Positions 7,123 through 57,011 are shown, counted from the stretch's first letter. The stretch is 64,000 nucleotides of DNA from Bacteroidales bacterium (GCA_024762655.1 JANTHB010000001.1:20015-84014), one strand, 5' to 3'. The notes: a model not told the origin generated them from the letters alone. Numbers and translations: made by a program.

Positions 7123-8496
7123 TTATTTTATGGTCTTGCTTTTGATCTCTCCTTCAAAAAGCTTTGTGTTCAGGAGCTCTCCCGGCCCGACATCCTTGGA
7201 TCGCTTCAGAGCGTGTCCCCGGAATCTTGTAATGGAATACCCTCGGCTTAAAACATTGACCGGGTCAAGATAGGAGAGACTCTTCCCCAGAATCGTCAAC
7301 TGATGTTTCCGGACCGTAAAATATTGTTTTGCCAACCGGGTCATCTCCGGGGTAAACATTTCTGTTTTCTGACGGTTCCATTCCAGATACTTTCCGGCTC
7401 CCTGTTCCAGCTCCCGGATGTATTTTGACAGTTGATGTTTTTTCCCCTGTAGGGTTTTTCCCGAGAGATAATACAGTTTTTGTTTGATGTTGTCCAGTTT
7501 TCTAACATGGCCTGAAAGGCGGTTCAAAAGTTGATTATTCATTTCATAGACAAAATGTCTGAGTTTATTGTTGCAGGTTGATATTTGTTTTTCTGCCATC
7601 TGAAAGATAATGCCGGCAGTTCCGATAACCTCTTCTTCAAAATTTCTTACTCTGTCGAGGATAAACTCTGCCACTGCTGTTGGAGTTTTCAGGTTGGTGT
7701 AAGCCACCAGGTCGGTAACGGTTTCATCCTTTTCGTGACCGATGCCGGTAAGAACCGGTAGCGGGAACTGGGCAATATGTTCAGCCAGCCGGTAGTTGTC
7801 GAAACTGCTCAGGTCGGCCTGGGAACCTCCTCCTCTTATAATGACGACAACATCAAAATCTTCTTCCCTTTCATAGATATTTTCCAGGGCCTCTATCAGC
7901 GTGTCTTCTACTTCCGGCCCCTGCATGATCGCCGGAAAAAGTGTATGGTTGAAGCGATATTTCCAGGGATTGTTGTTGAGCTGGTGAACAAAATCCTGAT
8001 AACCAGCGGCTGTTTCAGAGGAGATGATAGCGATATTTTGCGGCACCAACGGGAAGGGGAGGTTTTTGTTCATGGTAAGGATGCCTTCTTTTTGCAAGCG
8101 CTCAATGATCTCTTTACGTTTCAGCGCCATCTCTCCGACGGTATAAGCAGGGTCTATGTCTTTAATAGTCAGTGTGTATCCGTACACTTCATGGAATGTG
8201 ATTTCTGCTTGCACGAGTACTTTAAGTCCCGGGGCCAGGGGTCTGCCGGCGGTGGTCTCAAAGTAAGGCTTAAGCATCCTGAAAGTATAGGCCCAGATGG
8301 CTGCCCTGGCTTTTGCAGCAGGAAGATCGCTGTCGAGCTTCTTTTCAATGAGCTCCAGGTAACAATGTCCGCTGGCATTGATTTTTATTTCACTGATCTC
8401 GGCAACCACCCAGAGAGGTTGCGGAAACTTTTCTTCAAAGGTTTTCCTGATTCTGTGATTAAGCGCTGAGAGGGTCAGATATTCTTTTGTTTCCAC
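7123..8496 (-). CDS. xseA: Exodeoxyribonuclease VII large subunit
   Basis: 457 aa. N-terminal OB-fold region (LSALNHRIRKTFEEKFPQPLWVVAEISE), a central catalytic region (IIRGGGS) and a long C-terminal helical tail, as in XseA. Confidence 0.9.
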   Translation of the reverse strand: METKEYLTLSALNHRIRKTFEEKFPQPLWVVAEISEIKINASGHCYLELIEKKLDSDLPAAKARAAIWAYTFRMLKPYFETTAGRPLAPGLKVLVQAEITFHEVYGYTLTIKDIDPAYTVGEMALKRKEIIERLQKEGILTMNKNLPFPLVPQNIAIISSETAAGYQDFVHQLNNNPWKYRFNHTLFPAIMQGPEVEDTLIEALENIYEREEDFDVVVIIRGGGSQADLSSFDNYRLAEHIAQFPLPVLTGIGHEKDETVTDLVAYTNLKTPTAVAEFILDRVRNFEEEVIGTAGIIFQMAEKQISTCNNKLRHFVYEMNNQLLNRLSGHVRKLDNIKQKLYYLSGKTLQGKKHQLSKYIRELEQGAGKYLEWNRQKTEMFTPEMTRLAKQYFTVRKHQLTILGKSLSYLDPVNVLSRGYSITRFRGHALKRSKDVGPGELLNTKLFEGEIKSKTIK

Positions 8497-39297: not shown

Positions 39298-39400
39298 TGG
39301 GAACGGAGATCAAATATAAAATATCAATGAAAAAGGAGCATTAATTTGTATTGAAAATGTAAAGACAAGGCATGCCTTGTCTCCCAAAAAAAGAGAAATT

Positions 39401-42735: not shown

Positions 42736-42899
42736 TTCCGCTTGTACCTCTCCTTGAGGAGAGGTCAAAACTTTCGGTGAAAGTTTTGGGAGAGGTGAAA
42801 CAAAAAATTTCGGTTTTTGTACCTTTAGGTCAAAATAAAACGAGCGCCTGCCGATTGCCTGCCGGCAGGGTAGGCAGGGCAGGCAGGAAATACTCTGAT

Positions 42900-42942
42900 G
42901 GCTTCTGCCCGGCTGACGCCAGTCGGACGGGCAGCTTCGGGG
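42900..42942. repeat. REP-like GC-rich hairpin element, copy C
   Basis: ggcttctgcccggctgacgccagtcggacgggcagcttcgggg. It folds with a ctgcccg/cgggcag outer stem and a gac/gtc inner stem. Confidence 0.65.
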
Positions 42943-43000
42943 ATAGTTCGTTTTAAGAAATGTTTTATTTTAGGGCACTGTAATAAGACAAGAAAAGATC

Positions 43001-45340
43001 ATGAAAGTTGTAAAGCTGTTTTTTTTTCTGACCGTATTGATGCAGTTAAATGGTATCGCTCAATCTGCTGAAGATATCATTGTGTATAAAATTGGTTTGG
43101 GCGACTCCCAATATGGCTACCGTATTCCGTCCCTGGTGACTACCCGGGAAGGGACGCTGCTTGCCTTTGCGGAAAGAAGGGTAGGACTAGGGGATCATGC
43201 TCAAAATGATATTGTAGTTCGAAGGTCTGCCGATAACGGGAAAACATGGAGTTCTGTTCACGTAATTGCCGATTATGGGAAAAGCTCACTCAACGACCCT
43301 ATGGCCGTGGTACTCTCGTCCGGGCGCATCCTGCTGATCTTTCAGGAATATCCGTATGGTATCCATTCCCGTAACAGCGGCTGGATACAGATGGCGGATG
43401 AGGGATATGACGGTCCGCGCAACACCCACAGCTGGCTGACATCCAGCGATGATGACGGTCTGTCCTGGAGCCGGCCCCGGGAAATCACCGGCATGATCCG
43501 GCCCCACGACCGTATATCGGTGGGAAGTCCCGGTATCGGGATACAACTGAAAAGAGGGAAATTTGAAGGACGGATTGTTATCCCCCTTTATCTTACGAAA
43601 AAGATTGATGACAACAACCGGGTTTGGACCAATGCGGTAGCCTGGAGCGATGATGAAGGGAAAACATGGAAGATTAGCAATGATATGCACCGGGAAGGGC
43701 AGACCGGCTATGGCAATGAAGCCCAGGTAGCAGAACTGTCCGACGGTAGTGTTCTGTTTGTGGCCCGCAATCAGGGAGGACTCTACCGGCAGGTGTCGGT
43801 AAGCCGTGACGGTGGACGCACCTGGTCGCCTATGCGTCTTGATTTCGGACTGCCGGGAACTGCGTGTCAGGGATCATTGCTGGGCATTGACGCTCCTGAG
43901 AAAGAAGGTCGTCTGATACTACAGGCTTCTCCGGCCAATAAATATGCCCGGAATACCGGAACAATACGCATGAGTGATGATGAGGGTAAAAACTGGAAAT
44001 ACAGCCGCACCGTTACCCCTGCTTTTTTTGCCTATTCTTGTCTGACACAGCTTCAGAACGATCAGATCGGATTATTGTACGAAGCGGATCACTACCGTAC
44101 CATCCGCTTCAGGAAGTTCTCATTGGATTGGATCAGAAAAGGCGATGAGGAGACCAAACCAGCACCTTATTTGAGGATTCCCGTGATTGACCTGGACGGG
44201 GACAGATCGCGGCAGATAGTGGTGGATAAGGAAAAAGGACAATACCTGGGTCACCCCACCACGTTATTGCTGGAAGACGGGAAGACCATGCTGGTGGTCT
44301 ACCCGGAAGGACACGGCAGGGGACAGATCGTATACAAACGCAGTGCCGACGGAGGACGCACCTGGAGTGAAAGACTTCCTGTCCCGGCATCCTGGAAGAC
44401 CTCCAAAGAGGTACCTACCTTGTTCCGGACCATGGATAAATACGGGAAGAAGAGAATCCTTCTTTGGTCGGGATTGTACCCTGCACGGTTCTCTGTATCG
44501 GAAGATAACGGAGCTTCCTGGAGTGAGCTGGAACCCGCCGGCACCTGGGGCGGTATCGTGGTGATGGCTTGTATGACCCCCGTAAATACCGGGAAAGGAC
44601 ATTACATGGCTATGTTCCATGACGACATGAGATTCTTTACACGAAAGGGCCCCGAATGGTATAAAAATGATAAAAAAGACTTCAACAGTCGTATGTTTAC
44701 GTTGTATAAAACTTTTTCCGACGACGGGGGCCTGATCTGGACCTATCCTGAAGCCGTTGTTCAATCCAGGGAAATACACATTTGCGAGCCGGGTATTATC
44801 CGTTCACCGGATGGGACACAACTGGCGGTGCTATTGCGGGAAAACAGCCGCAGGGACCATTCACAGATCATTTTTTCCAATGATGAAGGAAAGAGCTGGA
44901 GCCGTCCCCGGCCGCTCCCCAACGAACTGACCGGCGACAGACATGTGCTGAAATATGCGCCGGACGGACGACTTGTGGTCGTTTTTCGGGATGTGAGCCC
45001 GGAAAGTTTTCATCGTGAGTTGATCGGGATGGCCAAAGAAAAACACGAATCCAATTACAGCAAGGTCGCGGAAGAAACAGGACTGGGCAGCCCGACGGAA
45101 GGAGACTGGGTCGCCTGGGTGGGGACCTATGACGACCTGGTACACGGTGGGAAAGGTGAGTACAGGATAAGATTAAAAGATAACAAGGTCGGATGGGATT
45201 GTGCCTATGCCGGACTGGAGTTGTTGCCTGACGGAACCTTTGTTACCACTACCTATGGACATTGGGAGAAGAATGAACAGCCTTATATTCTAAGTGTAAG
45301 GTTTAATTTGAAAGAGTTGGATGAGAGAAATGAGAAATGA
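43001..45340 (+). CDS. Secreted two-propeller BNR/Asp-box protein: N-terminal GH33 sialidase-like domain plus second BNR propeller
   Basis: 779 aa with a signal peptide. The N-half has the sialidase YRIPSL motif and Asp-boxes SADNGKTWS, SDDDGLSWS, SDDEGKTWK, SRDGGRTWS and SDDEGKNWK. The C-half has SADGGRTWS, SEDNGASWS, SDDGGLIWT and SNDEGKSWS but no RIP motif. Confidence 0.75.
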   Translation: MKVVKLFFFLTVLMQLNGIAQSAEDIIVYKIGLGDSQYGYRIPSLVTTREGTLLAFAERRVGLGDHAQNDIVVRRSADNGKTWSSVHVIADYGKSSLNDPMAVVLSSGRILLIFQEYPYGIHSRNSGWIQMADEGYDGPRNTHSWLTSSDDDGLSWSRPREITGMIRPHDRISVGSPGIGIQLKRGKFEGRIVIPLYLTKKIDDNNRVWTNAVAWSDDEGKTWKISNDMHREGQTGYGNEAQVAELSDGSVLFVARNQGGLYRQVSVSRDGGRTWSPMRLDFGLPGTACQGSLLGIDAPEKEGRLILQASPANKYARNTGTIRMSDDEGKNWKYSRTVTPAFFAYSCLTQLQNDQIGLLYEADHYRTIRFRKFSLDWIRKGDEETKPAPYLRIPVIDLDGDRSRQIVVDKEKGQYLGHPTTLLLEDGKTMLVVYPEGHGRGQIVYKRSADGGRTWSERLPVPASWKTSKEVPTLFRTMDKYGKKRILLWSGLYPARFSVSEDNGASWSELEPAGTWGGIVVMACMTPVNTGKGHYMAMFHDDMRFFTRKGPEWYKNDKKDFNSRMFTLYKTFSDDGGLIWTYPEAVVQSREIHICEPGIIRSPDGTQLAVLLRENSRRDHSQIIFSNDEGKSWSRPRPLPNELTGDRHVLKYAPDGRLVVVFRDVSPESFHRELIGMAKEKHESNYSKVAEETGLGSPTEGDWVAWVGTYDDLVHGGKGEYRIRLKDNKVGWDCAYAGLELLPDGTFVTTTYGHWEKNEQPYILSVRFNLKELDERNEK

Positions 45341-45554
45341 GAAATGAGAAGTTAGAAGGGAGAATTAAAGTTAAATGCATAAATATTTTGGAAGTCGGAA
45401 GGGAAGAATATCCTGATATAAAAAAAGTTAAAGGAATGATGACCTTATTTGTGTAAAAACAATTTGGCTAATATCTGTAGACAAGAAACGGGAGAGCCGG
45501 TCTTATATTTTGTAAAAGAAACAGTTAAGCCGATGTTGTGAGTAAAAATATATT

Positions 45555-45562
45555 TATATTTG
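45555..45562 (+). promoter_or_regulatory. Bacteroidota -7 promoter element (TAnnTTTG) upstream of the corrinoid protein gene
   Basis: tatatttg lies 30 nt upstream of the ATG at 45592. Confidence 0.45.
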
Positions 45563-45591
45563 GGGCAACATCGAATTAAAACCCTATAAAA

Positions 45592-46266
45592 ATGGTAGAT
45601 ATTCTTGAAAAACTGACGATTGTTGTAAAACGGGGGAAAGCGGATAAGAATTCGCCTTATCCTCCGGATCTGAAAGGTCAGGACGGCGCTGATGAGCTTA
45701 CGGCCGAAGCCTTGAAAATGGGGTTTACGCCGGACGAAGTATTGCAAAAAGCGCTGGTCAAAGGGATGCACCTGATCGGTGAGGATTTTAGTGCCGGCAG
45801 GGCTTTTGTCCCGGAGATGCTGATGGCTGCCAAGGCTATGAAAGCAGCCATGAAGCATATCGAGCCTTTTTTTAAGTCCGGTTCGGTGAAACAAAAAGGT
45901 ACCGTAATCATGGGAACGGTGCAGGGAGACCTGCATGATATCGGGAAAAACCTGGTGGCCATGATGATCGAAGGAGCCGGTTGGAAAGTGGTCGACCTGG
46001 GTTCCGATACCTCTTTTGAAAAGTTCTTGGCTGCCCTTGAAGAATATCCGGACGCTATTGTAGGCATGTCCGCCCTGCTAACGACTACCATGGTCAACAT
46101 GAAAGGAATCACAGAAAAGATCAAGGAGGTGAGTCCGAAGACGATTGTGATGGTGGGCGGAGCGCCCCTTTCACAGGATTTCTGCACCCAGATCGGGGCC
46201 GATTTCTATTCGCCCGATCCTCAGGGAGCTACGGAGTACCTGGATGCTCTGGTGAAAAGTGCATAG
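45592..46266 (+). CDS. Methyltransferase-cognate corrinoid (B12-binding) protein
   Basis: 224 aa. Helical cap domain followed by a Rossmann B12-binding domain with DxHxxG (GDLHDIGKN), SALLTTT and GGAPL blocks. Confidence 0.85.
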   Translation: MVDILEKLTIVVKRGKADKNSPYPPDLKGQDGADELTAEALKMGFTPDEVLQKALVKGMHLIGEDFSAGRAFVPEMLMAAKAMKAAMKHIEPFFKSGSVKQKGTVIMGTVQGDLHDIGKNLVAMMIEGAGWKVVDLGSDTSFEKFLAALEEYPDAIVGMSALLTTTMVNMKGITEKIKEVSPKTIVMVGGAPLSQDFCTQIGADFYSPDPQGATEYLDALVKSA

Positions 46267-46312
46267 TTTGTGGCTTTGCCAGGCGTATCCGCCAATCGGC
46301 GGAGGAGTTGGG

Positions 46313-46382
46313 TTTGTAGTTTGTAGTTTGAGGTTTGTAGTTTGAGGTTTGTGGTTTGTAGTTTGTAGTTTGTACTTTGTGG
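46313..46382. repeat. Heptanucleotide tandem repeat (TTTGTAG-like x10), nearly C-free on the plus strand
   Basis: tttgtag tttgtag tttgagg tttgtag tttgagg tttgtgg tttgtag tttgtag tttgtac tttgtgg, read directly. It lies between the corrinoid protein and the activase genes. Confidence 0.9.
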
Positions 46383-46437
46383 TTATTGTGAGCATTGATA
46401 AATTTTCACGTAACATTTTTCACTCCGGACTCAATAG

Positions 46438-47931
46438 ATGAAAGATCATTTTACAGTACATCTGGAGCCTTTGGGAAAGAAGGTGGAGGTGCCGGAGGGA
46501 ACCCCTTTGAAAGACGTATTGTTTTCCTACGGGGTGGAATTTCCCTGTGGAGGAAAAGGGATCTGTGGCGGATGCCGGGTGAAGGTGTTGAAAGGGGATG
46601 TATCTTTCGATGAACGACACAGGAGCCTGCTGGAGAAACTAAATCTGGATTTTTCCTGGCGGCTGGCATGCCAGAGTTATGTTACAGGAGATGTTACTCT
46701 GGAAATCGGACAGTTCGACACATTTATCCTGGCCGATAGTTCTCCTTTTCTTTTTAAGCCGCAGGAAGGATATGGCATTGCCTTTGACCTGGGTACCACA
46801 ACCATGGTGACCCAACTGGTCAACCTGAAAACCGGAAAGGTAATAGGAGTGGAGACCGCTGTAAATCCGCAGGCACAACATGGGGCGGATGTGATCTCCC
46901 GCATCGAATATGCCGTGTTGCAGGATGGACAGGCAACGCTTACCCGCCTGGTACGTGAGAAATTTGCCACCATGATCCACCGCCTGATCAGGAAAGCCGG
47001 AGGTATAGCTCCGGAAAAAATTGTAGTGGTAGGCAACACAGTGATGCATCATCTTTTTTGCGGCAGGGATCTGACACCCATGGCCTCTTATCCTTTTGAA
47101 ACCCCGGAGGGGGGCGCTTGTCATTTTACACCGGAAGAACTGGGTTTAAAAACGGATGATCATACGGATATTGAATTTCTTCCGGTGCTGGGCAGTTTCG
47201 TAGGAAGCGATATCCTGGCGGGCATCCTGGCCACAGGCATGGCAGAGAGCAAGGATCCTTTAATTCTGGTGGACCTGGGGACAAATGGGGAGATCGTAGT
47301 GGGAAACAGAGACAGGATCCTATGTGCCTCGACGGCAGCAGGCCCTGCCTTTGAAGGTACCAATATCCATATGGGCATGCGTGCCACAACAGGGGCCATC
47401 TCCTCGGTGACAAGGTCAGAGGAGGCAATCAGGGTGCATATAATCGGCAATGAGAAAGCCCGGGGGATCTGCGGCAGCGGACTGATAGATGCCATTGCGG
47501 TCTTTCTGGAAACCGGTAAAATTGATATCGGCGGCAGGATCAAAGGAGAATCCGGCCGTATTGACCTCACACCCGAAGTTTTTCTTACCCAAAAAGATAT
47601 TCGTGAATTGCAGCTGGCCAAAGGGGCTGTGGCTTCAGGCATTCAAATCCTGAGGGAAACGCTGGGCTTTGCCCCGGAAGATATCCGGAATGTGTATGTG
47701 TCCGGTGCTTTCGGTAGCTTTATCAATCTCGAAAATACCCGCCGGATTGGTTTGCTGAAATATCCGGCGGATAAGATCATCAAGATGGGAAATACGGCCC
47801 TGCTGGGGGCAAAAATGTCACTTTTTGAAAATGGAGATAAGATACGTGACATCCTGCAGAAAACCATCCATCTGTCTCTGGAAACCAATCCTGATTTTCA
47901 GGATATTTTTGCAGAGAACATGATATTCTGA
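46438..47931 (+). CDS. RACo/RamA-type reductive activator of corrinoid enzymes (2Fe-2S ferredoxin domain + ASKHA/DUF4445 ATPase)
   Basis: 497 aa. N-terminal ferredoxin Cys pattern CGGKGICGGC...C, then an actin-fold ATPase body (GIAFDLGTTTMV, DLGTNGEIV). Confidence 0.8.
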   Translation: MKDHFTVHLEPLGKKVEVPEGTPLKDVLFSYGVEFPCGGKGICGGCRVKVLKGDVSFDERHRSLLEKLNLDFSWRLACQSYVTGDVTLEIGQFDTFILADSSPFLFKPQEGYGIAFDLGTTTMVTQLVNLKTGKVIGVETAVNPQAQHGADVISRIEYAVLQDGQATLTRLVREKFATMIHRLIRKAGGIAPEKIVVVGNTVMHHLFCGRDLTPMASYPFETPEGGACHFTPEELGLKTDDHTDIEFLPVLGSFVGSDILAGILATGMAESKDPLILVDLGTNGEIVVGNRDRILCASTAAGPAFEGTNIHMGMRATTGAISSVTRSEEAIRVHIIGNEKARGICGSGLIDAIAVFLETGKIDIGGRIKGESGRIDLTPEVFLTQKDIRELQLAKGAVASGIQILRETLGFAPEDIRNVYVSGAFGSFINLENTRRIGLLKYPADKIIKMGNTALLGAKMSLFENGDKIRDILQKTIHLSLETNPDFQDIFAENMIF

Positions 47932-48047
47932 GGTATATTATGTTTACCGGCGCAATTTAAATACATATTAAAATATTTATTTAAATACATATTTAAAAGA
48001 GGGGGCTGTGGTCTTTCCGGGAGCCGGCCAAAAGGGGGCTGATACGA

Positions 48048-49508
48048 TTATTTAGGCGTACCGGAGTCTTCCATAAGCAGCAAATCTATCCAGGATTCTT
48101 TTTTACGGCGGTGTTTTTTATAGCGTTCGTTCATGTATTTTTTAACTTTTTTATGAAACAACCAGCAGGTTTTCATACGCAAGTTTAGTGTTTGGGATAA
48201 CTGAGTGATGTTAATGGTTCGGCCTGTGCTTGTGATGATCAGTATATACAAGGCTTTTTCGATCGGAAAACGGAGGTGGTGAAAAATGGTCCCTGCGGTA
48301 ACTGATTCTTTGTAGTTGCAAATCTTGCATCTTCTGACAAAAGGTTCATCCACACTGTATTTAGTGCTCCCACATTTCTTACAGGTAAATCCCTTCCCCC
48401 ATTTCAGATTGGCCAGAAGTTTGTAGCACGCATCTTTGTTTGGAAAGAATTTTCTGAATTCGTTGTAGTCCAGGAGCTTCTGCATAACACGTGCTTCCGA
48501 GATTCCTTTCAGTTCTTCCGACAGTTTGATATTGTGTTTTTTCAACAGTTCATTCATCCGGCGTATTTCATGGGATTGTTGTTCTATCTGCTCTTTTTGC
48601 TGCAGGATCTCATCTCTTTGCCGGCGTATTTCTTTGGTACGGACAGCTACCTGCATTTGCAATAACTTTTTCTGTCTCCGTGTGATCAGGAGTCTTGCTT
48701 CGAAGTACAGAAAAACAACCAGAATGATCAGGGACAGAATGATGAATTTGAAAAGAAGGGTCTTGGTAAAAGGAGGGATGATATGAATGATCAATTCAGC
48801 GGGTACAGGATTCCATACCCCATCGCTGTTGGCTGCTTTTACCTTGAAAATATATTTTCCCCCGTCCAGGTTGGTGTAGGTTGCTTCGCGACGGTGTGCA
48901 TCGGTATATTGCCAGGTCTTATCAAAGTTCTCGAGCATATAAGCATACTTGTTTTTTTCAGGATATTCGAAATGCAATCCCGTGAACTCAATGGTAAATA
49001 CATTGTGTTTATAATTAAGGATGATCTCCCTGGTTTCGGAGATGGGTTTAGTGAGTATGGTTTTCCCCAGGATCTTTTGGTGTGGGAATACCGGTTTCTG
49101 AAAGATTCTCAGGCCTGTGATCATGCAGATCGGAGGGATGGGGTTGTCAACGATTTTGTACGGATGGAAGAGGTTAAAACCGTTGGTTCCGCCAAAAAAC
49201 ATCGTTCCGTCCACCCCCGTGAGAGAGGAATTTTCAAGAAATTCCTCATCCTGCAGACCGTCTTCCACATCAAATTTTTTTATACGTATGATTTTATGTG
49301 TAACGCTATCCCTTATGATCTCTGCAAGGCCTTTGTTTGTACTAACCCATAGATTTTTATCTTTATCCTCTTCGATGGATTTGATGAAATTGGAAGGCAG
49401 TCCGTCTTCAGTGGTAATGCGGGAAAATCCTTTTCGGGGAGAAATTAGTTTATTTAATAGGTATGGTTTGTTTCCCGTGATTAACAGGAATGGTTCTTTT
49501 CCCTTCGA
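48048..49508 (-). pseudogene. 5'-truncated Reg_prop/Y_Y_Y sensor fused via TM and coiled coil to an IS1595-type zinc-ribbon/HTH module
   Basis: The ORF-track CDS 48048-49268 starts at a GTG. The same frame stays open upstream to 49508 and encodes a propeller repeat (GLPSNFIKSIEEDKDKNLWVSTNKGLAEI) with no start codon. It runs into the 3' end of the upstream gene. The C-terminus KWGKGFTCKKCGS...RRCKICNYKESVTAGTIFHHLRFPIEKA matches the IS1595 transposase N-terminal pattern, but no DDE domain follows. Confidence 0.55.
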
Positions 49509-51921
49509 TCAGGTAGCCCCTCAGTCCCGGAGGCAGTGTGACGGTAAAGGTTTTTTTATTATTATTTCCGGAATAGTCTACGATAATCATGCCACCGGGG
49601 TGAGGGAAAGCTGCATGAAACCTAGAGAGGTTTCCGGGATTAGGCTGTATTATCACCGTGGAGAAACCCGGTGATCCCGGATAAATACCTGCAATGGTAT
49701 GTAAAAAGTCAAAACAAGGGCTGGCACTCCATCCGTGGCATTCCGACCGGGGATTGATATCTGTTTCTCCGAAAGTAGTCATACCGTTCCTGATCATGTG
49801 AGTCCAGGGACCCAGCATTTCGGTATAGCGGTTTCCCATGCCTGTTTTTTGCAGGGCTCTGAAAAGATAGAACCTGAAGTAGATGGTGGCTTGTATCAGG
49901 GAAGAATCGGTCAGGATGCGATTCATAAGTGCCTGCTGTTCACTTTTTGGCAAAACATCGGCCAGGATTGCAAAGACATTGGTGTGTTGTGAGAAGATCT
50001 TTTTTTCCGGTGTTTCTGCAATCATCTTTCTGCCGGGGTCATAGCACAAACGGGTTACCTGCTCTGATATGCGGGTGGCCAGGGTCCGGTATTTTCCGGC
50101 TTTTTCTTTCAGACCAAAGAAATCAAATAATTCTGCAGCATTTTTCAGGGCGATCACGAATTGGAGGGAGACATTGGCAGAATGACCTTTGTCGGCACCC
50201 GGGGGAATCCCGTTTGGAAAGCCCCGGGCCCAGTCGGTAAAGTTCCACCATTCGAGACCGGACAACAAGCCGGTACTGTCAATGTGTCTTTCGAACCATT
50301 CCAGAACATCCGAAATACCTGGGAGAAAATCCCGGATAAAGCCGGGATCGTTCCTGTACATGAAATAATCGTGGATCATATCGATCCAGAGCAGGGAATA
50401 GGGCGGAATAATCTGGGTGATATAAGCAGGGTATCTGCTTTGGGTGAGACCGTCCGGGATGCGTGAGTTGTCGAACTGTCGTATGGCCTTGCGCATCAGC
50501 CGGTCGTCGCCTGAGACACACAGGGATACCAGTGCTTCTATCCGTGTATCCCCGATGTATTGTAGTTGTTCATAGTAAGGATCCATGTAGGTTTCTGCCG
50601 CAGAATTACGGATTGTTCTCCAGGCAACCTGCCAGATCCTGGTAAGCAGGGTATCGTCAGATTCAAAACGGGCTTTCTGCTGGAAAGGATAAACCGTGTA
50701 AACACTGTGGTAATCTTCCAGGATAAGGGGTTCGTTACCGGTTTTTATTTCAAACTGAACAAACCGGTAGGTGCGTCTGCCCCAGGGAACAAAGCTCCTG
50801 TGGTCACCACCGTCGGGTAGCAGGATATCGTAGATGCCGCGGATTTCTTTATTTTTGAAAATATTCCTGTTTCCTTTAAGGTCGTAATAGCTGAGGTTCC
50901 CGTCCGAAGTGTTCTCATATGATGGGGTTGTTTTAAATAATGCTTCCGCATAGGTGATTTTGATACGGCTGTTTTTCCCCTTGCTATAAGTCAATTCAGG
51001 ATATCCGGTGGTGTGAAAGGTCTGGTCGAGTAAAAGAGAGATTGTGGTATTGGAAGGAATAACCAGATGGCCGGTACCATTCAGAAAGGCCGGGTCCGGG
51101 TCCATGTTTTCAGATCTTATTATCTTCGGGAACCTTTGTGTTTCTCGTTCCATAAATGGTATCGTGCGGGGTACGAGGAACCAGGTGCTACCGTATAAAA
51201 ATCCTCTGCCTACGGCAAATTCCACGGTGGCTTTTTTGGGCCTGAGCCAGTCCGAATCATCATATCCGGGTTGTTTCCATCCCCAGGGATGTTTTTTCCC
51301 ATCCATTTTATCTCCGGGGCCGGCGGCATAATAAGCCCCCAGGGAATCACTGACAAAAGGGATGTCTTCATACGCAGCATCCCGTATGACTTTCCATGTC
51401 ATTGTTCCCGTATTGACATTTAAGGGGAGATTTTTATCTCCTTGCAGGATCAATGCGGTTTGAAAGGTCTGTTGGGCAGCTTTCCGGTATTCTCCGAAGT
51501 TGATCACTTCCATGGCCAGGGTGTTTTTACCTTTTAGCAGATAGGGTGCTATATCGGTAGTCTCATAACGCCAGTTTAAGAGATCCCCTTCTGCGGGTCC
51601 TGAGCATATGAAGGTGCCGTTGACGTAAAACCTGTAACGGTTATCGGCAGATAAAAAAACCCTGAACGAATCCGGGATGGCGGTGAGAGTGAAATCTTTT
51701 CTGAACAGAAAAACTCCATAGTCCAGGGTTGAGGCTTCCGGATGAGTAATCCATTGAGCCGTCCAGGCATGTTTAAGCTGAGTATAGTCTTTCCCTTGGA
51801 AGTTAACCTCTACAGAGGATTCCTGTGCCTCTGAGAGACGCGGAAAAAACAGGACGCTTGTTCCCACGAGAAGAAGGAACAAACATACAGGCCGGAATAT
51901 GGAATGCAGGGTTCGGTTCAT
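49450..51921 (-). CDS. GH78-like alpha-L-rhamnosidase family glycoside hydrolase (secreted)
   Basis: 823 aa with a signal peptide. Rhamnosidase-N-like region (AQWITHP, LFRKDFTL, RYRFYVNG) and a six-hairpin region (DPYYEQLQYIGDTRIEAL). Assigned from motif recall only. Confidence 0.55.
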   Translation of the reverse strand: MNRTLHSIFRPVCLFLLLVGTSVLFFPRLSEAQESSVEVNFQGKDYTQLKHAWTAQWITHPEASTLDYGVFLFRKDFTLTAIPDSFRVFLSADNRYRFYVNGTFICSGPAEGDLLNWRYETTDIAPYLLKGKNTLAMEVINFGEYRKAAQQTFQTALILQGDKNLPLNVNTGTMTWKVIRDAAYEDIPFVSDSLGAYYAAGPGDKMDGKKHPWGWKQPGYDDSDWLRPKKATVEFAVGRGFLYGSTWFLVPRTIPFMERETQRFPKIIRSENMDPDPAFLNGTGHLVIPSNTTISLLLDQTFHTTGYPELTYSKGKNSRIKITYAEALFKTTPSYENTSDGNLSYYDLKGNRNIFKNKEIRGIYDILLPDGGDHRSFVPWGRRTYRFVQFEIKTGNEPLILEDYHSVYTVYPFQQKARFESDDTLLTRIWQVAWRTIRNSAAETYMDPYYEQLQYIGDTRIEALVSLCVSGDDRLMRKAIRQFDNSRIPDGLTQSRYPAYITQIIPPYSLLWIDMIHDYFMYRNDPGFIRDFLPGISDVLEWFERHIDSTGLLSGLEWWNFTDWARGFPNGIPPGADKGHSANVSLQFVIALKNAAELFDFFGLKEKAGKYRTLATRISEQVTRLCYDPGRKMIAETPEKKIFSQHTNVFAILADVLPKSEQQALMNRILTDSSLIQATIYFRFYLFRALQKTGMGNRYTEMLGPWTHMIRNGMTTFGETDINPRSECHGWSASPCFDFLHTIAGIYPGSPGFSTVIIQPNPGNLSRFHAAFPHPGGMIIVDYSGNNNKKTFTVTLPPGLRGYLIEGKRTIPVNHGKQTIPIK

Positions 51922-51958
51922 GATGCATTTTTCCTGAAAGGATTAATAACGGATAAAA

Positions 51959-52936
51959 TCATTTGGCTATCTTAGATTTGTCAACGCCCAGAAAAGAGAT
52001 ACCATTCCACACATCACTGACCACCAGGTTGTTCTCAATGGTCCAGTTGTAAAAGTATCCGTCAAAGCAACCGATCCCCTGCATCATCGATTTCTCGATC
52101 TGATTGGTATCCGTATAGCTGATGATGATATTATTGCGGAGGACCACGTCACGGACGGTCTCTTCCACACCGCCCACCGCGCTGGTGTAGCTTTGGAACC
52201 CGTCGTCATGGTTGCCGGGACCTTCATCAGAAGGACTGTAACCGGTCACGTCATAACAGTTTTTTACAAAATTGTTTTCATACCGGCAATAGCTGGCCAG
52301 CCCGCGTATGGCATCACCTACAAAATTCTCGATCGTGTTGCCTTTTATTATGGTATGCTGCCCTTCCACCACCAGAGCAAAGTTAATATTTCGGATATGA
52401 TTGTTATACAGACCACTTTCGCTGCTTTTTATCATAAAACCGCTGGAGGTGCGGTTGAACCAGTCGGTGCGATTCCAGTTTTTGGTGTCGGCGTTGCTGT
52501 AAACGTCACAATCCTCAAAAAGAATGTGATCCGAATTGGAGCTGGTCTGTACCAGGAAGATCATGTCGTATACATCATTGCCTTCAGGCAGTTCCGAGGA
52601 GATATGCAGGCCCTCGATTTTCCAGTAGGAGGCGCTGGAAAATTTGATTGACTCCACCATTGCCGTATCACTCCCGGTTGGGATAACGACCACATAATTG
52701 CTGTTTCTACCGAAGAGATAAGGCTTGCCATGGTTCCCCGGCATCAGGAAGATCGTGTCCCCCGCCTGAAAGGATTTGTGGGCTTCAAAAACAGCCTGCA
52801 ACGTGCTCCATGCTGTTGCCGGTGTATATCCGCTGTTTGCCATGCTGCCATTCACCAGATCGCAATAATAACTCACAGCAACAGCTTCTAACGAATAGAA
52901 CAGGACCAACCCTGCCAGTATTATGAACTTCCTCAT
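51959..52936 (-). CDS. Secreted right-handed parallel beta-helix repeat protein (glycan lyase/hydrolase-like)
   Basis: 325 aa. Signal peptide and PbH1-like repeats (NNHIRNINFALVVEG, KGNTIENFVGDAIRG, ENNFVKNC, RNNIIIS). Confidence 0.45.
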   Translation of the reverse strand: MRKFIILAGLVLFYSLEAVAVSYYCDLVNGSMANSGYTPATAWSTLQAVFEAHKSFQAGDTIFLMPGNHGKPYLFGRNSNYVVVIPTGSDTAMVESIKFSSASYWKIEGLHISSELPEGNDVYDMIFLVQTSSNSDHILFEDCDVYSNADTKNWNRTDWFNRTSSGFMIKSSESGLYNNHIRNINFALVVEGQHTIIKGNTIENFVGDAIRGLASYCRYENNFVKNCYDVTGYSPSDEGPGNHDDGFQSYTSAVGGVEETVRDVVLRNNIIISYTDTNQIEKSMMQGIGCFDGYFYNWTIENNLVVSDVWNGISFLGVDKSKIAK

Positions 52937-53075
52937 TTGTACTACCCTCTTATTTTAGCAGATTTTAACAGACAAAATATTCCTGCTTCAAAAATACAAT
53001 TTTTTAACTGAATCACACAATCGTTTGCGTTAATCGTTAAGAAATGTTTTATTTGTACTTCAAATCATAAACGAC

Positions 53076-53408
53076 ATGAATCCTTTACTGGGAAATTTTT
53101 ATCACGCGTTGGGGGGGCAGGCGGCTGCCAGTGTTTATATTCCTTACAACAAAGTAAAGGACTGGGCGTGGGAGGTGTACTGGTTGACGGGAGGTTTTTT
53201 CTCCTGGATTCTGATGTCCTGGCTGGTCTCTCTGATTTTTGTTCCCGGCCTGCGGGAGTTGATGCACAGTGTCCCGTTGAATAATCTGATCTGGCCTTAT
53301 GTTTTTGGTGTGTTGTGGGGGATAGGAGGGCTTACCTTTGGTCTGACCATCCTGGTGGTATCCATTTTTAACATAGGAGCCGGGAATTACATTCAGCAAT
53401 TTGAATGA
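53076..53408 (+). pseudogene. rhaT: Truncated L-rhamnose:proton symporter (N-terminal ~90 of ~340 residues)
   Basis: The 110-aa ORF aligns by eye with the E. coli RhaT N-terminus (YHALGGQAAASVYIPYNKVKDWAWEVYWLTGG vs [32 protein letters not shown]; ...WGIGGLTFGLT vs WGIGNINYGLT). It then diverges and stops, overlapping the next gene start. Confidence 0.7.
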
Positions 53409-54508
53409 CAGAAATAAATAATATAATGACACCAAAAGAGCGTTTTGCAAAGACCATGCGTCACGAAAATCCTGACCGGCCCCCCATTTTTGTGACGTTC
53501 ACCCCTCAGGTGGCACGGAAAATGTCGGATCATCTGGGTATGCCTTACGAGGATCCCTATGATTCGCTGCTGTCCACGCGTATCTCGCACATGGACCTGC
53601 TCACCTCACTGGGCAACGACTTCGTTGGTATCGCAGCCTGTGCCCCGGACAATTTTCCTACCCGGGATACCGGAAACGGGATTTTAGAAAATGAATGGCA
53701 TATGAAGTTCATTGATCAGGGGATTTATTTTGAGTTTTATGAATATCCCCTTGCACATGCAGCCACCAAAGCGGATATTGATAATTTCGATTTTCCGGAT
53801 CCTTATGCTCCCGGACGATTCGATGTTGCCAGGGCAAATTACAGCAAGTATAAAGATGAATATGTGATCGTAGCGGACCTGGAAACGGCTATTTTTGAAA
53901 CATCCTGGTACCTGGTGGGTCTGGAAAAGCTGCTTGTTGACATGATGATGAGCGCTGAATATGTAGAGCCTCTGCTGGATCGTATCATGGAGGTGAATCT
54001 GGCCATTGGAAAAGAGCTGATTGCCATGGGGGCCGACATGATCTGGGCCGGTGATGATTTCGGCTCACAGAAGGGGATGCTGATCTCCCCGGACTTGTGG
54101 AGACAATATTTCAAACCCCGAATGAAATATATGTTTGAAGAATTCCGGAAAGTGAATCCGGACATTAAGATCGCCTGGCATACATGTGGCTCTGTCCTGC
54201 CCATCATCCCAGAGCTTATAGAGATCGGTCTGGATGTGCTTAATCCCATTCAACCGTTGGCGGCAGGGATGGATGCGGAATTCCTGAAAAAGACTTACGG
54301 AGACCAGTTGGTCTTTTTCGGCGGCTTAGATATACAGAAACTGATGCCTACCGGGACGCCGGAAGATATCCGGGCCGAGGTGCGACGTTTGAACAGGATC
54401 CTGGGAGAGAACGGCGGGTATATCATCGCCCCGGCACATAACATTCAGGATGATACCCCCGTGGAAAATATTATGGCCTTTTTTGATGAAGCCAAAAAAC
54501 CGCTGTAG
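53405..54508 (+). CDS. Uroporphyrinogen-decarboxylase (URO-D) family protein, MtaA/CmuA-like corrinoid methyltransferase candidate
   Basis: 367 aa. URO-D/MtaA-like N-terminus (TPKERFAKTMRHENPDRPPIF) and C-terminal blocks (WAGDDFGSQKGMLISP, AWHTCGS, LNPIQP). An alternative start lies at 53426. Confidence 0.7.
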   Translation: MTEINNIMTPKERFAKTMRHENPDRPPIFVTFTPQVARKMSDHLGMPYEDPYDSLLSTRISHMDLLTSLGNDFVGIAACAPDNFPTRDTGNGILENEWHMKFIDQGIYFEFYEYPLAHAATKADIDNFDFPDPYAPGRFDVARANYSKYKDEYVIVADLETAIFETSWYLVGLEKLLVDMMMSAEYVEPLLDRIMEVNLAIGKELIAMGADMIWAGDDFGSQKGMLISPDLWRQYFKPRMKYMFEEFRKVNPDIKIAWHTCGSVLPIIPELIEIGLDVLNPIQPLAAGMDAEFLKKTYGDQLVFFGGLDIQKLMPTGTPEDIRAEVRRLNRILGENGGYIIAPAHNIQDDTPVENIMAFFDEAKKPL

Positions 54509-54822
54509 TTCCGGAGAAAAAGCCATTTGTCGATAATTATTTCAATTATTGCGCAAATAGCAAAAAAGTAAAACCTGAAAACCGGCAGGCATTGCGATAA
54601 TGCATCCGGTTTCTCCGATAAACGTATAAACTCCCTGCAATACCGAAAAGGATCTATTCATTCGAGAAGAATATTTTTTCAGTTCTTTTGTTTTGCATTT
54701 TTGACTGGCTTTTTACCGGACACTACTGAAAAAATAAGTTAAAGTAAAAATAAAATGATTTGTAAATAGTAAACATTTAAAGGGAAAATGTATCTTTATC
54801 CCTCTTATTATTATTTATAAAT

Positions 54823-55628: not shown

Positions 55629-57011
55629 ATGATGAAAAAGGCAGGTTTACTTTTAATTTTTGTGGTATTGGTCATTAATGTCCGAGCCCAATGGTTGCAT
55701 ATCAGTCCCGATGGCCGGCATCTGGTAAAGGATGACGGTTCGGTTTTCTTTTATATGGCGGACACCGGCTGGGAGCTCTTCCACCGCTGTACGAAAAATG
55801 AGACGGAGATGTATCTGAAGGATCGTCATGCCAAGGGCTTCAATGTGGTCCAGGCAGTGGTGCTGGCCGAGCTGGACGGGCTGCATACTCCCAACGCGGA
55901 AGGGGAAGTTCCGTTGGCGGATGATGATCCTCTGCACCCCAATGAAAAATACTTTCAGCATGTGGATTGGGTGATACAAAAAGCTGCCGAGCTGGGTATG
56001 TATATTGCTGTGCTTCCCACCTGGGGAGACAAGTGGAACAAGCGATGGGGGGTAGGGCCGGTGATCTTTGATACACCAGAGAAAGCCCGAAAATATGGAA
56101 AATGGCTCGGGGAAAGATACAAAGACCAACCCAACATCATCTGGATCCTGGGGGGTGATCGGAATCCGGAGAAACCTTTGCATTTTGAGATCATTCGCGC
56201 CATGGCCGGAGGAATCCATGACGGAGATCAGGGGAAACATCTGATTACCTATCATCCCAGCGGAGGGAAATCGTCATCGCAATGGTTTCACAGTACATCC
56301 TGGCTTGATTTTAATATGGCACAGACGGGACATGGAATGAGAAACAATCCGGTGTACATTCAAGTTGATCATGATTATAATCTGCATCCTGTGAAACCCT
56401 GCCTGGACGGAGAACCTCAGTATGAAGATCATCCCGTAGCCTTCTCTGCATTGAATGAACGGTTTGTGGCCTACGATGCCCGCCAGGCAGCTTATTGGGC
56501 TGTACTGGCCGGCGCTTTGGGGCATACTTATGGCAACCATAATATCTGGCAGATGTGGACCCCTCAACGAACGCCGATCACCTGGGCCCGGATCCCCTGG
56601 TACTATGCCATCCATCAGCCGGGAGCGATGCAGATGGGGTACATGCGCAAACTTTTCGAATCACGTCCTTTTCTGGAGATGGTCCCGGATCAATCCCTTC
56701 TGGCCAATGTTTACGGACAGGATAAAAATGTGATCCGTGCAGCCCGGGGTGCAGACCGTTCGTTTGTGATCGTCTATACCTCCTATGGCGCACCTGTTCA
56801 TCTGCGTATGGAGAAAATGACGGCCGCCATGCTTAACGGATACTGGTACAATCCGCGTGAAGGGAATAGCATTCCGATAGAGGCGTTTGCCAATCCGCAT
56901 AAAACGAAAGTTTTTGTTCCTCCGTCAGGCGGTACCCGTACCGACTGGGTGCTGGTACTGGATGATCCGGATAAAAACTATCCCGATCCGGGGAAATTTA
57001 TGCTGAAATAA
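55629..57011 (+). CDS. GH140-like (DUF4038) glycoside hydrolase, secreted
   Basis: 460 aa with a signal peptide. Matches the DUF4038/GH140 pattern: FFYMADTGWELFHR, GFNVVQAVVLAELDG, PNEKYFQHVDWVIQKAAELGMYIAVLPTWGDKW. Confidence 0.7.
   Translation: MMKKAGLLLIFVVLVINVRAQWLHISPDGRHLVKDDGSVFFYMADTGWELFHRCTKNETEMYLKDRHAKGFNVVQAVVLAELDGLHTPNAEGEVPLADDDPLHPNEKYFQHVDWVIQKAAELGMYIAVLPTWGDKWNKRWGVGPVIFDTPEKARKYGKWLGERYKDQPNIIWILGGDRNPEKPLHFEIIRAMAGGIHDGDQGKHLITYHPSGGKSSSQWFHSTSWLDFNMAQTGHGMRNNPVYIQVDHDYNLHPVKPCLDGEPQYEDHPVAFSALNERFVAYDARQAAYWAVLAGALGHTYGNHNIWQMWTPQRTPITWARIPWYYAIHQPGAMQMGYMRKLFESRPFLEMVPDQSLLANVYGQDKNVIRAARGADRSFVIVYTSYGAPVHLRMEKMTAAMLNGYWYNPREGNSIPIEAFANPHKTKVFVPPSGGTRTDWVLVLDDPDKNYPDPGKFMLK

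What the first reader, a model, noticed from the sequence alone, without database searches (positions are those of the whole stretch)
48048..49508. Membrane sensor (Reg_prop/Y_Y_Y) ending in a transposase-derived IS1595 zinc-ribbon/HTH instead of a kinase, and 5'-truncated
Seen: the protein runs from the last propeller blade(s) through a Y_Y_Y-type domain (YAYMLENFDKTWQY...YIFKVKAANSDGVWN). One TM and a ~70-aa coiled coil follow. It ends in a module matching the N-terminus of IS1595/ISXO2-type transposases (RKFFPNKDACYKLLANLKWGKGFTCKKCGS...RRCKICNYKESVTAGTIFHHLRFPIEKALY...MKTCWLFHKKV). There is no DDE catalytic domain and no HisKA/HATPase or AraC/LuxR output. Upstream of the GTG start, the same frame stays open for 80 more codons encoding a further propeller repeat without any start codon. 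It collides with the 3' end of the GH78-like gene. Inferred: a transposase DNA-binding domain has been domesticated as the output of a one-component transmembrane glycan sensor. In this genome the copy has lost most of its periplasmic propeller, so it is a likely pseudogene or a rearrangement product.
Basis: partly seen in the sequence, partly recalled or inferred. Interest (0 to 1): 0.55.

Follow-up and report, generated by a model that had tools for sequence, protein, structure and literature searches.

The report
Deletion remnant of transposase-derived glycan sensor
This is the surviving back half of a membrane sensor gene that a 3.6-kb deletion cut in two; it matters because the intact family, found across Bacteroidota and often placed just before sugar-uptake genes, uses a DNA-binding module borrowed from an IS1595 transposase in place of a kinase, and no paper in the searched library describes it.

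Summary
The frame at 48048-49508 (-) encodes one Reg_prop blade, a Y_Y_Y domain, one TM helix, a 75-aa helical linker, and a C-terminal Zn-ribbon plus helix-turn-helix. That C-terminal module is 53% identical (E 1e-38) to the N-terminus of true IS1595 transposases. There is no DDE, kinase, receiver, AraC or LuxR domain.

Three syntenic orthologues (L003-L005) are full length at 1029-1039 aa. The window carries a ~3.6-kb deletion that removed a 612-aa gene and about 560 sensor codons. It fused the remnant to the last codons of the GH78 gene (junction 49445-49456). A second assembly has the same junction. The remnant has no start codon for 80 codons and no promoter motif of its own. It also has no stop codons and no excess dN, so it is most likely a recent pseudogene.

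The fusion itself is real and conserved. Two architectures carry the module: propeller/Y_Y_Y sensors and 7TMR-DISM sensors. At least 150 clusters at 50% identity exist, and all genome loci look Bacteroidota by title or gene content. In 16 of 41 loci SusC/SusD follows directly.

The best reading is a phosphorelay-free, membrane-tethered regulator of polysaccharide-utilization genes. DNA binding is inferred, not shown.

The parts
48048..49268 (-). Longest callable ORF of the remnant (406 aa, GTG start): end of the last propeller blade, Y_Y_Y, TM, helical linker, Zn-ribbon/HTH.
   Evidence: The same ORF with one substitution (H to L) is called in a second assembly as P0001 in L002.
49269..49449 (-). 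Start-less continuation of the sensor frame. It encodes one further Reg_prop blade (nt 49335-49403) and is homologous to codons ~560-620 of the full-length orthologues.
   Evidence: There is no in-frame ATG/GTG/TTG.
49445..49456 (-). Deletion junction. The GH78 3' end is joined to the interior of the sensor gene. The GH78 stop codon TAA (49450-49452) is read out of frame from sensor-derived sequence (AAT AAA). About 8 nt (CTATTAAA) can be assigned to either parent.
   Evidence: blastn of the window against L003/L004/L005 and junction alignments.
48780..48971 (-). Y_Y_Y (Ig-like) periplasmic domain.
   Evidence: Pfam PF07495, E 3.4e-19, residues 180-243 of the 486-aa frame.
48702..48758 (-). 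Single transmembrane helix (LLFKFIILSLIILVVFLYF), with a basic cluster (RRQKK) on the C-terminal side.
   Evidence: Kyte-Doolittle scan; the only window above 1.6.
48474..48698 (-). Cytoplasmic helical linker of 75 aa. Its last ~35 residues (EIxRMNxLLxxxNxKL...ARV) are conserved in both sensor architectures but absent from transposases.
   Evidence: Alignments A1 and A3; AF2 helix 2-38 of the module.
48312..48440 (-). Four-cysteine zinc ribbon (CxxC...CxxC; frame residues C376, C379, C394, C397).
   Evidence: Pfam PF12760 at 32.3 bits. The Cys residues are invariant in 37 module sequences. AF2 places strands at module residues 78-96 with pLDDT above 90.
48111..48263 (-). Three-helix (HTH-like) domain with a basic last helix (MKTCWLFHKKVKKYMNERYKKH).
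   Evidence: AF2 helices 110-121, 128-135 and 139-160. 53% identity to the transposase N-terminus through this region. Weak HTH_11/HTH_24 hits in paralogue L013. Sub-threshold MarR-like matches.
49450..51921 (-). GH78-type alpha-L-rhamnosidase gene. Its last 5-7 codons were lost in the deletion and it now ends directly on the remnant.
   Evidence: Pfam; C-terminal comparison with the L003/L005 orthologues.

Best explanation
The window holds the 3' 45% of a gene for a membrane-tethered one-component sensor-regulator.

Intact members have this layout: signal anchor, two periplasmic Reg_prop beta-propellers, Y_Y_Y domain, one TM helix, a ~75-aa helical linker, and a cytoplasmic Zn-ribbon plus HTH module. 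A second architecture has a 7TMR-DISMED2/7TM sensor instead of the propellers. The cytoplasmic module was captured from the DNA-binding N-terminus of an IS1595-family transposase.

Proposed mechanism (inferred): ligand binding outside is passed through the TM helix and the conserved linker, which is probably a dimeric coiled coil. This changes how the two Zn-ribbon/HTH heads bind an operator next to the gene, and so switches neighbouring SusC/SusD or glycoside-hydrolase genes without any phosphorelay.

In this genome a ~3.6-kb deletion removed a conserved 612-aa secreted-protein gene and the first ~560 sensor codons. That loss includes the signal anchor and nearly all of the propellers. The rest was fused to the end of the GH78 gene. 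The remnant has no start codon for 80 codons and no promoter motif of its own, so it is most likely a recent, not yet decayed pseudogene.
For: Shown: domains and topology.
- Domain content and single TM.

Shown: homology to transposases.
- 53% identity, E 1e-38, to transposase residues 6-123, ending where the DDE begins.
- In an unbootstrapped NJ tree the sensor modules form one clade nested among transposase N-termini.

Shown: a real, conserved family.
- 41 full or near-full sensor ORFs were found in 50 genome loci. The titles are overwhelmingly Bacteroidota, and the two sensor loci titled otherwise have Bacteroidota-type neighbours.
- The top 150 representatives at 50% identity all have lengths matching one of the two architectures or are fragments.
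- Of 58 representatives scanned, 52 hit Zn_ribbon_IS1595, 33 hit 7TMR-DISM_7TM and 25 hit Reg_prop plus Y_Y_Y. None has a kinase, receiver, AraC, GerE or DDE domain.
- The four Cys residues and the HTH core are invariant.
- The AF2 model is confident: pLDDT above 90 for module residues 40-160.

Shown: genomic context.
- SusC plus SusD follow directly on the same strand in 16 of 41 loci, for both architectures. Other loci have GH16, GH78 or T9SS proteins nearby.
- A 17-nt footprint, TTAGTATYCANNNGGGA, is conserved in the sensor-SusC spacer and occurs nowhere else in the 52 loci.

Shown: the deletion.
- Orthologues L003, L004 and L005 are 1029-1039 aa, with the gene order GH78, 612-aa gene, sensor.
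- The junction was mapped.
- The same junction is present in assembly L002, which differs by 1 nt in 11,988.
- The deleted parts are absent from the 64-kb window.
- No TAnnTTTG motif lies on the minus strand between 49268 and 51880.
- The window branch has dN 0.058, against 0.048 and 0.068 for the intact orthologues, and no stop in 486 codons. This points to a recent event.
Against: - No experiment shows that the module binds DNA or that any member regulates its neighbours.
- Adjacency to SusC/SusD is partly non-independent, because about 9 of the 16 loci are orthologous Cyclobacteriaceae loci.
- In the window's own clade (L003-L009) the sensor sits at the 3' end of a GH cluster, not upstream of SusC/SusD.
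- The remnant ORF is completely intact and conserves every family-invariant residue, so retained function cannot be excluded.
- dS is saturated, so dN/dS could not be used.
- Only 64 kb of the genome is visible. The missing half could lie elsewhere.
Confidence: 0.72

Rival explanations
1. The truncated gene is still expressed. It would be co-transcribed with GH78 and initiate at GTG 49268 or ATG 49202. It would then act as a ligand-independent (constitutively on or off) regulator, or as a dominant-negative partner of a paralogue.
For: - The 486-codon frame has no stop or frameshift, and all invariant module residues are kept.
- dN on the window branch is not elevated.
- There is no terminator or gap between GH78 and the remnant, so it should be on the GH78 transcript.
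- An A/T-rich stretch precedes the GTG.
Against: - The 80 codons after the junction contain no start codon.
- The GTG and its upstream sequence are ordinary conserved coding sequence (IRIKKFDVEDG) in the orthologues, not a newly created start.
- A product would lack the signal anchor, so ~170 aa of periplasmic domain would need export without a signal.
- The only difference between the two assemblies over 12 kb is a nonsynonymous change inside the remnant.
Confidence: 0.12
2. The conserved C-terminal module is not a transcriptional output. It might bind IS1595 ends to control transposition (like N-terminal transposase fragments such as IS1 InsA), or it might bind RNA or a protein partner.
For: - Very high similarity to active-looking transposases.
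- No solved structure or characterised homologue exists to anchor a function.
- The inner part of the IS inverted repeats (CATTTAGTTC in L048, CACTTTGTTAA in L053) weakly resembles the spacer footprint CACTTAGTATC.
Against: - The module is always tethered to environmental sensor domains and placed next to SusC/SusD or GH genes, not next to IS elements.
- Sensors form one clade distinct from the transposases and have gained a conserved linker.
- The module is strongly basic, with 30 K+R against 12 D+E.
Confidence: 0.13
3. The apparent fusion or truncation is an artefact. Either an IS1595 element inserted into a kinase-type sensor, or there is an assembly or frameshift error, or the gene was split by a rearrangement and its 5' half is active elsewhere.
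For: - Only 64 kb is visible.
- One homologue (L001) really is split by a frameshift into 288-aa and 818-aa ORFs.
Against: - There is no DDE coding capacity: only 116 nt lie between the stop and the next gene.
- The fusion is found as intact ORFs in isolate genomes.
- An identical junction is present in a second assembly.
- The 612-aa neighbour is lost together with the sensor 5' half, as expected for one simple deletion.
Confidence: 0.03

Closest known systems
Bacteroides hybrid two-component systems (HTCS, e.g. BT4663/BT1754 type; from general knowledge)
   Same: - Periplasmic Reg_prop beta-propellers plus Y_Y_Y sensor.
- Inner-membrane protein that carries its own DNA-binding domain.
- Located beside SusC/SusD or glycoside-hydrolase genes.
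   Different: - No HisKA, HATPase, receiver or AraC domain at all.
- The TM helix is connected by a helical linker directly to a Zn-ribbon/HTH of transposase origin, so signalling cannot use phosphotransfer.
IS1595-family (ISXO2-like) transposases, Pfam PF12760 + PF12762
   Same: The Zn-ribbon plus HTH N-terminal ~115 aa are homologous at 42-53% identity.
   Different: - No DDE catalytic domain and no flanking inverted repeats.
- Single-copy gene in conserved synteny.
- Preceded by sensor, TM and a family-specific conserved linker.
7TMR-DISM receptors (7TMR-DISMED2 + 7TM with kinase, cyclase, GGDEF or phosphatase outputs; from general knowledge)
   Same: The more numerous architecture among the 58 representatives scanned (33 of 58) has the same extracellular and 7TM sensor.
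   Different: The output is the IS1595-derived DNA-binding module. I did not find this among described outputs in the literature search.
Membrane-bound one-component transcription factors (ToxR/CadC type; from general knowledge)
   Same: A single polypeptide that senses outside and is presumed to bind DNA inside while staying in the membrane, with no phosphorelay.
   Different: - Opposite topology: the DNA-binding domain is C-terminal here.
- The DNA-binding fold is unrelated (Zn-ribbon plus HTH rather than an OmpR-type winged helix).
- The sensors are different.
Domesticated transposase-derived regulators (eukaryotic THAP/BED/FAR1-type factors; bacterial TnpB-derived TldR; from general knowledge)
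   Same: A mobile-element nucleic-acid-binding part has been reused by the host for gene regulation.
   Different: Only the N-terminal DNA-binding region of a DDE transposase is reused, and it is fused to transmembrane sensors. Specific to Bacteroidota as far as seen here.

Membership tests
IS1595-family transposase / insertion sequence | N-terminal Zn-ribbon (PF12760) followed by an HTH | tested here: met
   PF12760 at 32.3 bits, above the 25.4 cutoff. 53% identity to P0335 residues 6-123.
IS1595-family transposase / insertion sequence | DDE_Tnp_IS1595 catalytic domain (PF12762) | tested here: not met
   Absent in the window ORF, in full-length orthologues and in 58 representatives. Only 116 nt follow the stop codon.
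IS1595-family transposase / insertion sequence | Terminal inverted repeats flanking a ~1-kb element | tested here: not met
   True IS copies show 27-32-nt inverted repeats (L048, L051, L053). The sensor gene instead lies in conserved synteny between the GH78 and RACo genes.
Hybrid two-component system (HTCS) | Periplasmic Reg_prop propellers plus Y_Y_Y | tested here: met
   Full set in orthologue L003: Reg_prop E 2e-62, Y_Y_Y E 4e-18. The window keeps only one blade plus Y_Y_Y.
Hybrid two-component system (HTCS) | HisKA and HATPase kinase core, receiver domain, AraC-type HTH | tested here: not met
   None detected in the window ORF, in the orthologues, or in 58 representatives.
Membrane-tethered one-component regulator | Sensor and DNA-binding-type domain in one polypeptide, without phosphotransfer domains | tested here: met
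   Domain architecture; single TM or 7TM.
Membrane-tethered one-component regulator | Sequence-specific DNA binding and control of target genes | not testable with these tools
   Indirect only: SusC/SusD adjacency in 16 of 41 loci and a conserved spacer footprint.
Pseudogene (deletion remnant) | Truncated relative to syntenic orthologues, with the breakpoint mapped | tested here: met
   486 of ~1030 codons remain. A ~3.6-kb deletion has its junction at 49445-49456. The same junction is in L002.
Pseudogene (deletion remnant) | Loss of start codon, promoter and export signal | tested here: met
   No in-frame start for 80 codons. No TAnnTTTG on the minus strand between 49268 and 51880. The signal anchor lies in the deleted part.
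Pseudogene (deletion remnant) | Signs of decay (stops, frameshifts, raised dN) | tested here: not met
   No stop in 486 codons. Window-branch dN is 0.058, against 0.048 and 0.068 in the intact orthologues.

The most novel reading that the evidence does not exclude
The intact family is a previously unrecognised class of polysaccharide-utilization-locus regulators in Bacteroidota. They would be transmembrane sensors of propeller/Y_Y_Y or 7TMR-DISM type that act without phosphorelay, through a DNA-binding head captured once from an IS1595 transposase. Their operators might descend from IS terminal repeats. The window copy would then record the recent loss of such a regulator from a rhamnosidase-containing glycan locus.
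Probability: 0.5. Interest if true: 0.72.

Novelty: new variant of a known kind. Interest (0 to 1): 0.58.

Why it matters
Known regulators of polysaccharide utilization in Bacteroidota are HTCS, ECF-sigma/anti-sigma pairs, SusR-like proteins and classical cytoplasmic repressors (general knowledge). Here a conserved family occupies the regulator position beside SusC/SusD, with at least 150 clusters at 50% identity that include cultured species.

This family has no kinase. Its output is a transposase-derived Zn-ribbon/HTH. Public annotation calls its members only 'transposase', '7TM ... domain-containing protein' or 'propeller domain-containing protein'.

If DNA binding is confirmed, three things follow:
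- A new regulator class would be added to PUL prediction.
- It would be a clear bacterial case of a DDE-transposase DNA-binding domain domesticated as a signalling output.
- Transmembrane signalling to DNA without phosphotransfer would become directly testable.

The window copy itself is of limited interest. It is a recent deletion remnant.

Tried and rejected
- Word-index search with the 173-aa module alone found only 3 fragments, so it was too insensitive. It was replaced by a genome scan and a profile search.
- The profile from A2 unintentionally kept 7TM columns (363 positions). The global hit counts (11,329 / 2,189 / 429) therefore mix in transposases and 7TM proteins. I use only the top-150 list.
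- Foldseek against the PDB gave only generic zinc-ribbon ribosomal proteins, none at E <= 0.001.
- The PDB profile search gave only sub-threshold MarR-like matches, E about 0.07.
- NCBIfam has no model for the family.
- Six literature searches found nothing on this fusion.
- dN/dS was not usable because dS is saturated. A dN relative-rate comparison was used instead.
- I looked at whether the spacer footprint derives from IS inverted repeats. The resemblance is a short A/T-rich core found post hoc, so it is left as unproven.
- L013's downstream gene pair is not SusC/SusD. It is PSCyt/PSD1 plus DUF1501, so it was not counted.

Full report
**1. What is in the window**

On the minus strand, ORF 48048..49268 encodes 406 aa from a GTG start. 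The same frame is open for 80 further codons, up to a stop at 49509-49511. There is no in-frame ATG, GTG or TTG in that stretch.

Pfam on the 486-aa frame gives three domain hits:
- Reg_prop at residues 36-58.
- Y_Y_Y at residues 180-243, E 3e-19.
- Zn_ribbon_IS1595 at residues 357-399, 32.3 bits against a cutoff of 25.4.

No DDE, kinase, receiver, AraC or LuxR domain is present. A single hydrophobic helix lies at residues 251-269. It is followed by RRQKK and a 75-aa polar helical segment.

The upstream gene, 49450..51921 (-), is a GH78-type rhamnosidase. Its last 58 nt overlap the open sensor frame.

**2. The C-terminal module is transposase-derived**

The last ~118 aa align to residues 6-123 of P0335 at 53% identity, E 1e-38. 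P0335 is a 297-aa protein with Zn_ribbon_IS1595 and DDE_Tnp_IS1595 domains. Dozens of similar transposases match at 40-53% identity. The match ends exactly where their DDE domain starts.

True IS copies recovered in the same scans have 27-32-nt terminal inverted repeats (L048, L051, L053). The sensor genes have none of the IS hallmarks.

An AlphaFold2 model of the 180-aa module has mean pLDDT 86, and above 90 for residues 40-160. It shows:
- a long N-terminal helix;
- two short helices;
- a three-stranded zinc ribbon carrying the four invariant cysteines;
- a three-helix bundle with a long basic last helix.

No solved structure resembles the whole module. Foldseek finds only ribosomal zinc ribbons, none at E <= 0.001. 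A PDB profile search finds only sub-threshold MarR-type matches for the helical part.

**3. The fusion is a real, conserved family**

A scan of one genome per GTDB species returned 50 loci. Nearly all are titled as Bacteroidota. The exceptions are one Ignavibacteriales MAG that carries a true transposase, and two sensor loci titled Limnohabitans and Bifidobacteriaceae whose neighbours (SusC/SusD, GH16) suggest mis-binned contigs. Cultured genera include Algoriphagus, Echinicola, Negadavirga, Rhodonellum, Marinoscillum and Flexithrix.

The ORFs fall into two size classes, which correspond to two architectures:
- 1000-1070 aa: Reg_prop repeats, Y_Y_Y, TM, linker, Zn-ribbon/HTH.
- 610-650 aa: 7TMR-DISMED2, 7TMR-DISM_7TM, linker, Zn-ribbon/HTH.

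In a search of 1.84 billion representatives, the best 150 hits all have these lengths or are fragments, with the module at the C-terminal end. Among 58 of them scanned with Pfam:
- 52 match Zn_ribbon_IS1595.
- 33 match 7TMR-DISM_7TM.
- 25 match Reg_prop plus Y_Y_Y.
- None has a kinase, receiver, AraC, GerE or DDE domain.

Across 37 module sequences the four Cys, the FPxxKAFY motif and the TxW of the last helix are invariant or nearly so. About 35 residues of the linker just before the module (EIxRMNxLLxxxNxKL...ARV) are also conserved in both architectures, and are absent from transposases.

A rough NJ tree without bootstrap puts all sensor modules in one clade nested among transposase N-termini, with the two architectures intermixed. 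This fits one capture followed by sensor swapping, but it is tentative.

Public names are uninformative: 'transposase', '7TM diverse intracellular signaling domain-containing protein', 'two-component regulator propeller domain-containing protein', 'LadS' and 'ParA, partial'. NCBIfam has no model for the family. Six full-text literature searches found no description of the fusion.

**4. Genomic context of the family**

Neighbouring ORFs in 41 loci were clustered. In 16 loci the sensor is followed directly, on the same strand, by a SusC-like TonB-dependent receptor and a SusD-like protein (Pfam). Often a Laminin_G_3 protein comes next. This holds for both the 7TM type and the propeller type (L014, L042).

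About nine of these 16 loci are orthologous Cyclobacteriaceae loci, so the number of independent cases is roughly 6-8. Other loci carry GH16 and T9SS-secreted proteins, or a PSCyt/PSD1(CBM6) plus DUF1501 pair.

In the sensor-SusC spacer of the Algoriphagus group the sequence is otherwise only ~64% conserved. One block, TTAGTATYCANNNGGGA, is invariant ~55-65 nt after the sensor stop. It occurs once per locus in six loci, or eight with a degenerate pattern, and nowhere else in the 52 loci held at that point. It is a candidate operator or promoter element. Its link to the regulator is untested.

**5. The window copy is a deletion remnant**

The closest orthologues are L003, L004 and L005, from Bacteroidales/Rikenellaceae MAGs. 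Their C-terminal modules are 76-88% identical to the window's at the protein level, and they are 1029-1039 aa long with an N-terminal signal anchor. Their gene order is GH78, then a conserved 605-612-aa secreted protein with no Pfam match, then the sensor. In L003 and L004 a convergent RACo gene follows, as in the window.

blastn shows which segments correspond:
- Window 48063-49442 matches L003 8528-7147.
- Window 49532-51825 matches L003 3447-1154.

So ~3.6 kb of L003 corresponds to fewer than 100 nt in the window. Junction alignments place the breakpoint at 49445-49456:
- GH78 homology runs through ...TIPIK, where the orthologues continue for 5-7 more codons.
- Sensor homology starts at LNKLISPxKGF, about codon 560.
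- The new GH78 stop codon TAA is read out of frame from the sensor's AAT AAA.
- About 8 nt (CTATTAAA) can be assigned to either side. This suggests, as inference only, a microhomology-mediated deletion.

The deleted sequences are not elsewhere in the window. A Logan assembly from SRR19843167 (L002) carries the same junction and differs from the window at 1 of 11,988 nt. That single difference is a His-to-Leu change inside the remnant.

No Bacteroidota-type -7 motif (TAnnTTTG) lies on the minus strand between 49268 and 51880. The remnant can therefore only be transcribed as a tail of the GH78 message.

The remnant shows no decay. It has no stop in 486 codons. Its branch dN is 0.058, against 0.048 for L003 and 0.068 for L004, with L005 as outgroup. 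dS is saturated. The simplest reading is a recent deletion. A retained function for a 406-aa or shorter product cannot be excluded but is unlikely. It would need internal initiation on unmodified coding sequence, and membrane insertion without the signal anchor.

**6. Mechanism and rivals**

Shown:
- Architecture and topology elements.
- Homology to the transposase DNA-binding region.
- Conservation of the family.
- Absence of phosphotransfer and catalytic domains.
- PUL-type neighbourhoods.
- The deletion.

Inferred:
- The periplasmic or extracellular sensor binds a glycan-derived ligand.
- The conserved linker dimerises and transmits the signal.
- The Zn-ribbon/HTH binds an operator near the gene and controls neighbouring SusC/SusD or GH genes.

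Rivals:
- A functional truncated product (~0.12).
- A non-transcriptional role for the module, such as IS-end, RNA or protein binding (~0.13).
- An artefact, IS insertion or split gene (~0.03).

**7. Comparison with known systems**

The family works most like a Bacteroides HTCS, or a ToxR/CadC-type membrane-bound one-component regulator. It is not a member of either. The kinase, receiver and AraC domains were tested and are absent, and the DNA-binding fold is different.

It is homologous to IS1595 transposases only in their N-terminal region. It fails the two other defining tests, the DDE domain and the terminal repeats.

I file it as a new variant of a known kind: a transmembrane one-component PUL-type sensor with an unprecedented, transposase-derived output. 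The window instance is a recent pseudogene of it.

**8. Verdict**

The local feature is ordinary, a deletion remnant. The family it reveals appears undescribed in the searched literature and is moderately to highly interesting. Overall interest is 0.58.

Noticed in passing
window 45592-47931 and 53405-54508: A corrinoid methyltransferase set sits among glycoside hydrolases. It comprises a B12-binding protein (45592-46266), a RACo-type corrinoid activase (46438-47931) and a URO-D/MtaA-like protein (53405-54508). The hydrolases are GH78, an apiosidase-like protein (55629-57011) and a BNR/sialidase-like protein (43001-45340). This could be a demethylation system for methylated sugars of a complex pectin-like glycan.
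   Followed up: partly
L003 3547-5385; L005 3549-5366 (also L004, L007, L008, L009): A conserved 595-612-aa secreted protein, rich in DxDxDG-like motifs and with no Pfam match, always lies between GH78 and the sensor in relatives. It is completely deleted in the window.
   Followed up: partly
L026 5106-5122, L029 8598-8614, L030 8588-8604, L033/L050 8595-8611, L035 8599-8615, L036 2110-2126, L045 8554-8570: An invariant block, TTAGTATYCANNNGGGA, lies in the otherwise poorly conserved sensor-SusC spacer. A second GGGAAAtt block sits ~55 nt downstream, and a TTTCGGAAAC palindrome lies near SusC. These are candidate operator or promoter elements.
   Followed up: partly
window 47955-47993 and 48000-48041: The 116-nt spacer between the convergent RACo and sensor genes holds a 15-nt direct repeat (ATTTAAATACATATT, twice, 24 nt apart) and AGGGGGCTG twice. 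In L003 the corresponding spacer is only ~10 nt.
   Followed up: no
L002 versus window 42812-54799: The two assemblies differ at a single nucleotide in 11,988. That difference is a nonsynonymous His-to-Leu change inside the remnant's helical linker.
   Followed up: partly
L001 7159-10406: The homologue in a 259-kb contig is split by a frameshift into 288-aa and 818-aa ORFs that overlap at 7950-8025. The same split is seen in a second assembly. It is either another pseudogene or a sequencing error.
   Followed up: no
L013 4954-10107: A 7TM-type family member is followed not by SusC/SusD but by a PSCyt1/PSCyt2/PSD1 protein with two CBM6 stretches, plus a DUF1501 protein. The pair is known mainly from Planctomycetes.
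   Followed up: no
window 39377-41764: A pyruvate-formate-lyase-like glycyl radical enzyme (PFL-like plus Gly_radical, E 4e-211) lies a few kb from the glycan genes.
   Followed up: no
P0387 / WP_192007337.1, P0292, P0276, P0281: Full-length or fragmentary family members are deposited as 'transposase' in GenBank and UniProt. Such records may be counted as mobile elements in automated surveys.
   Followed up: no
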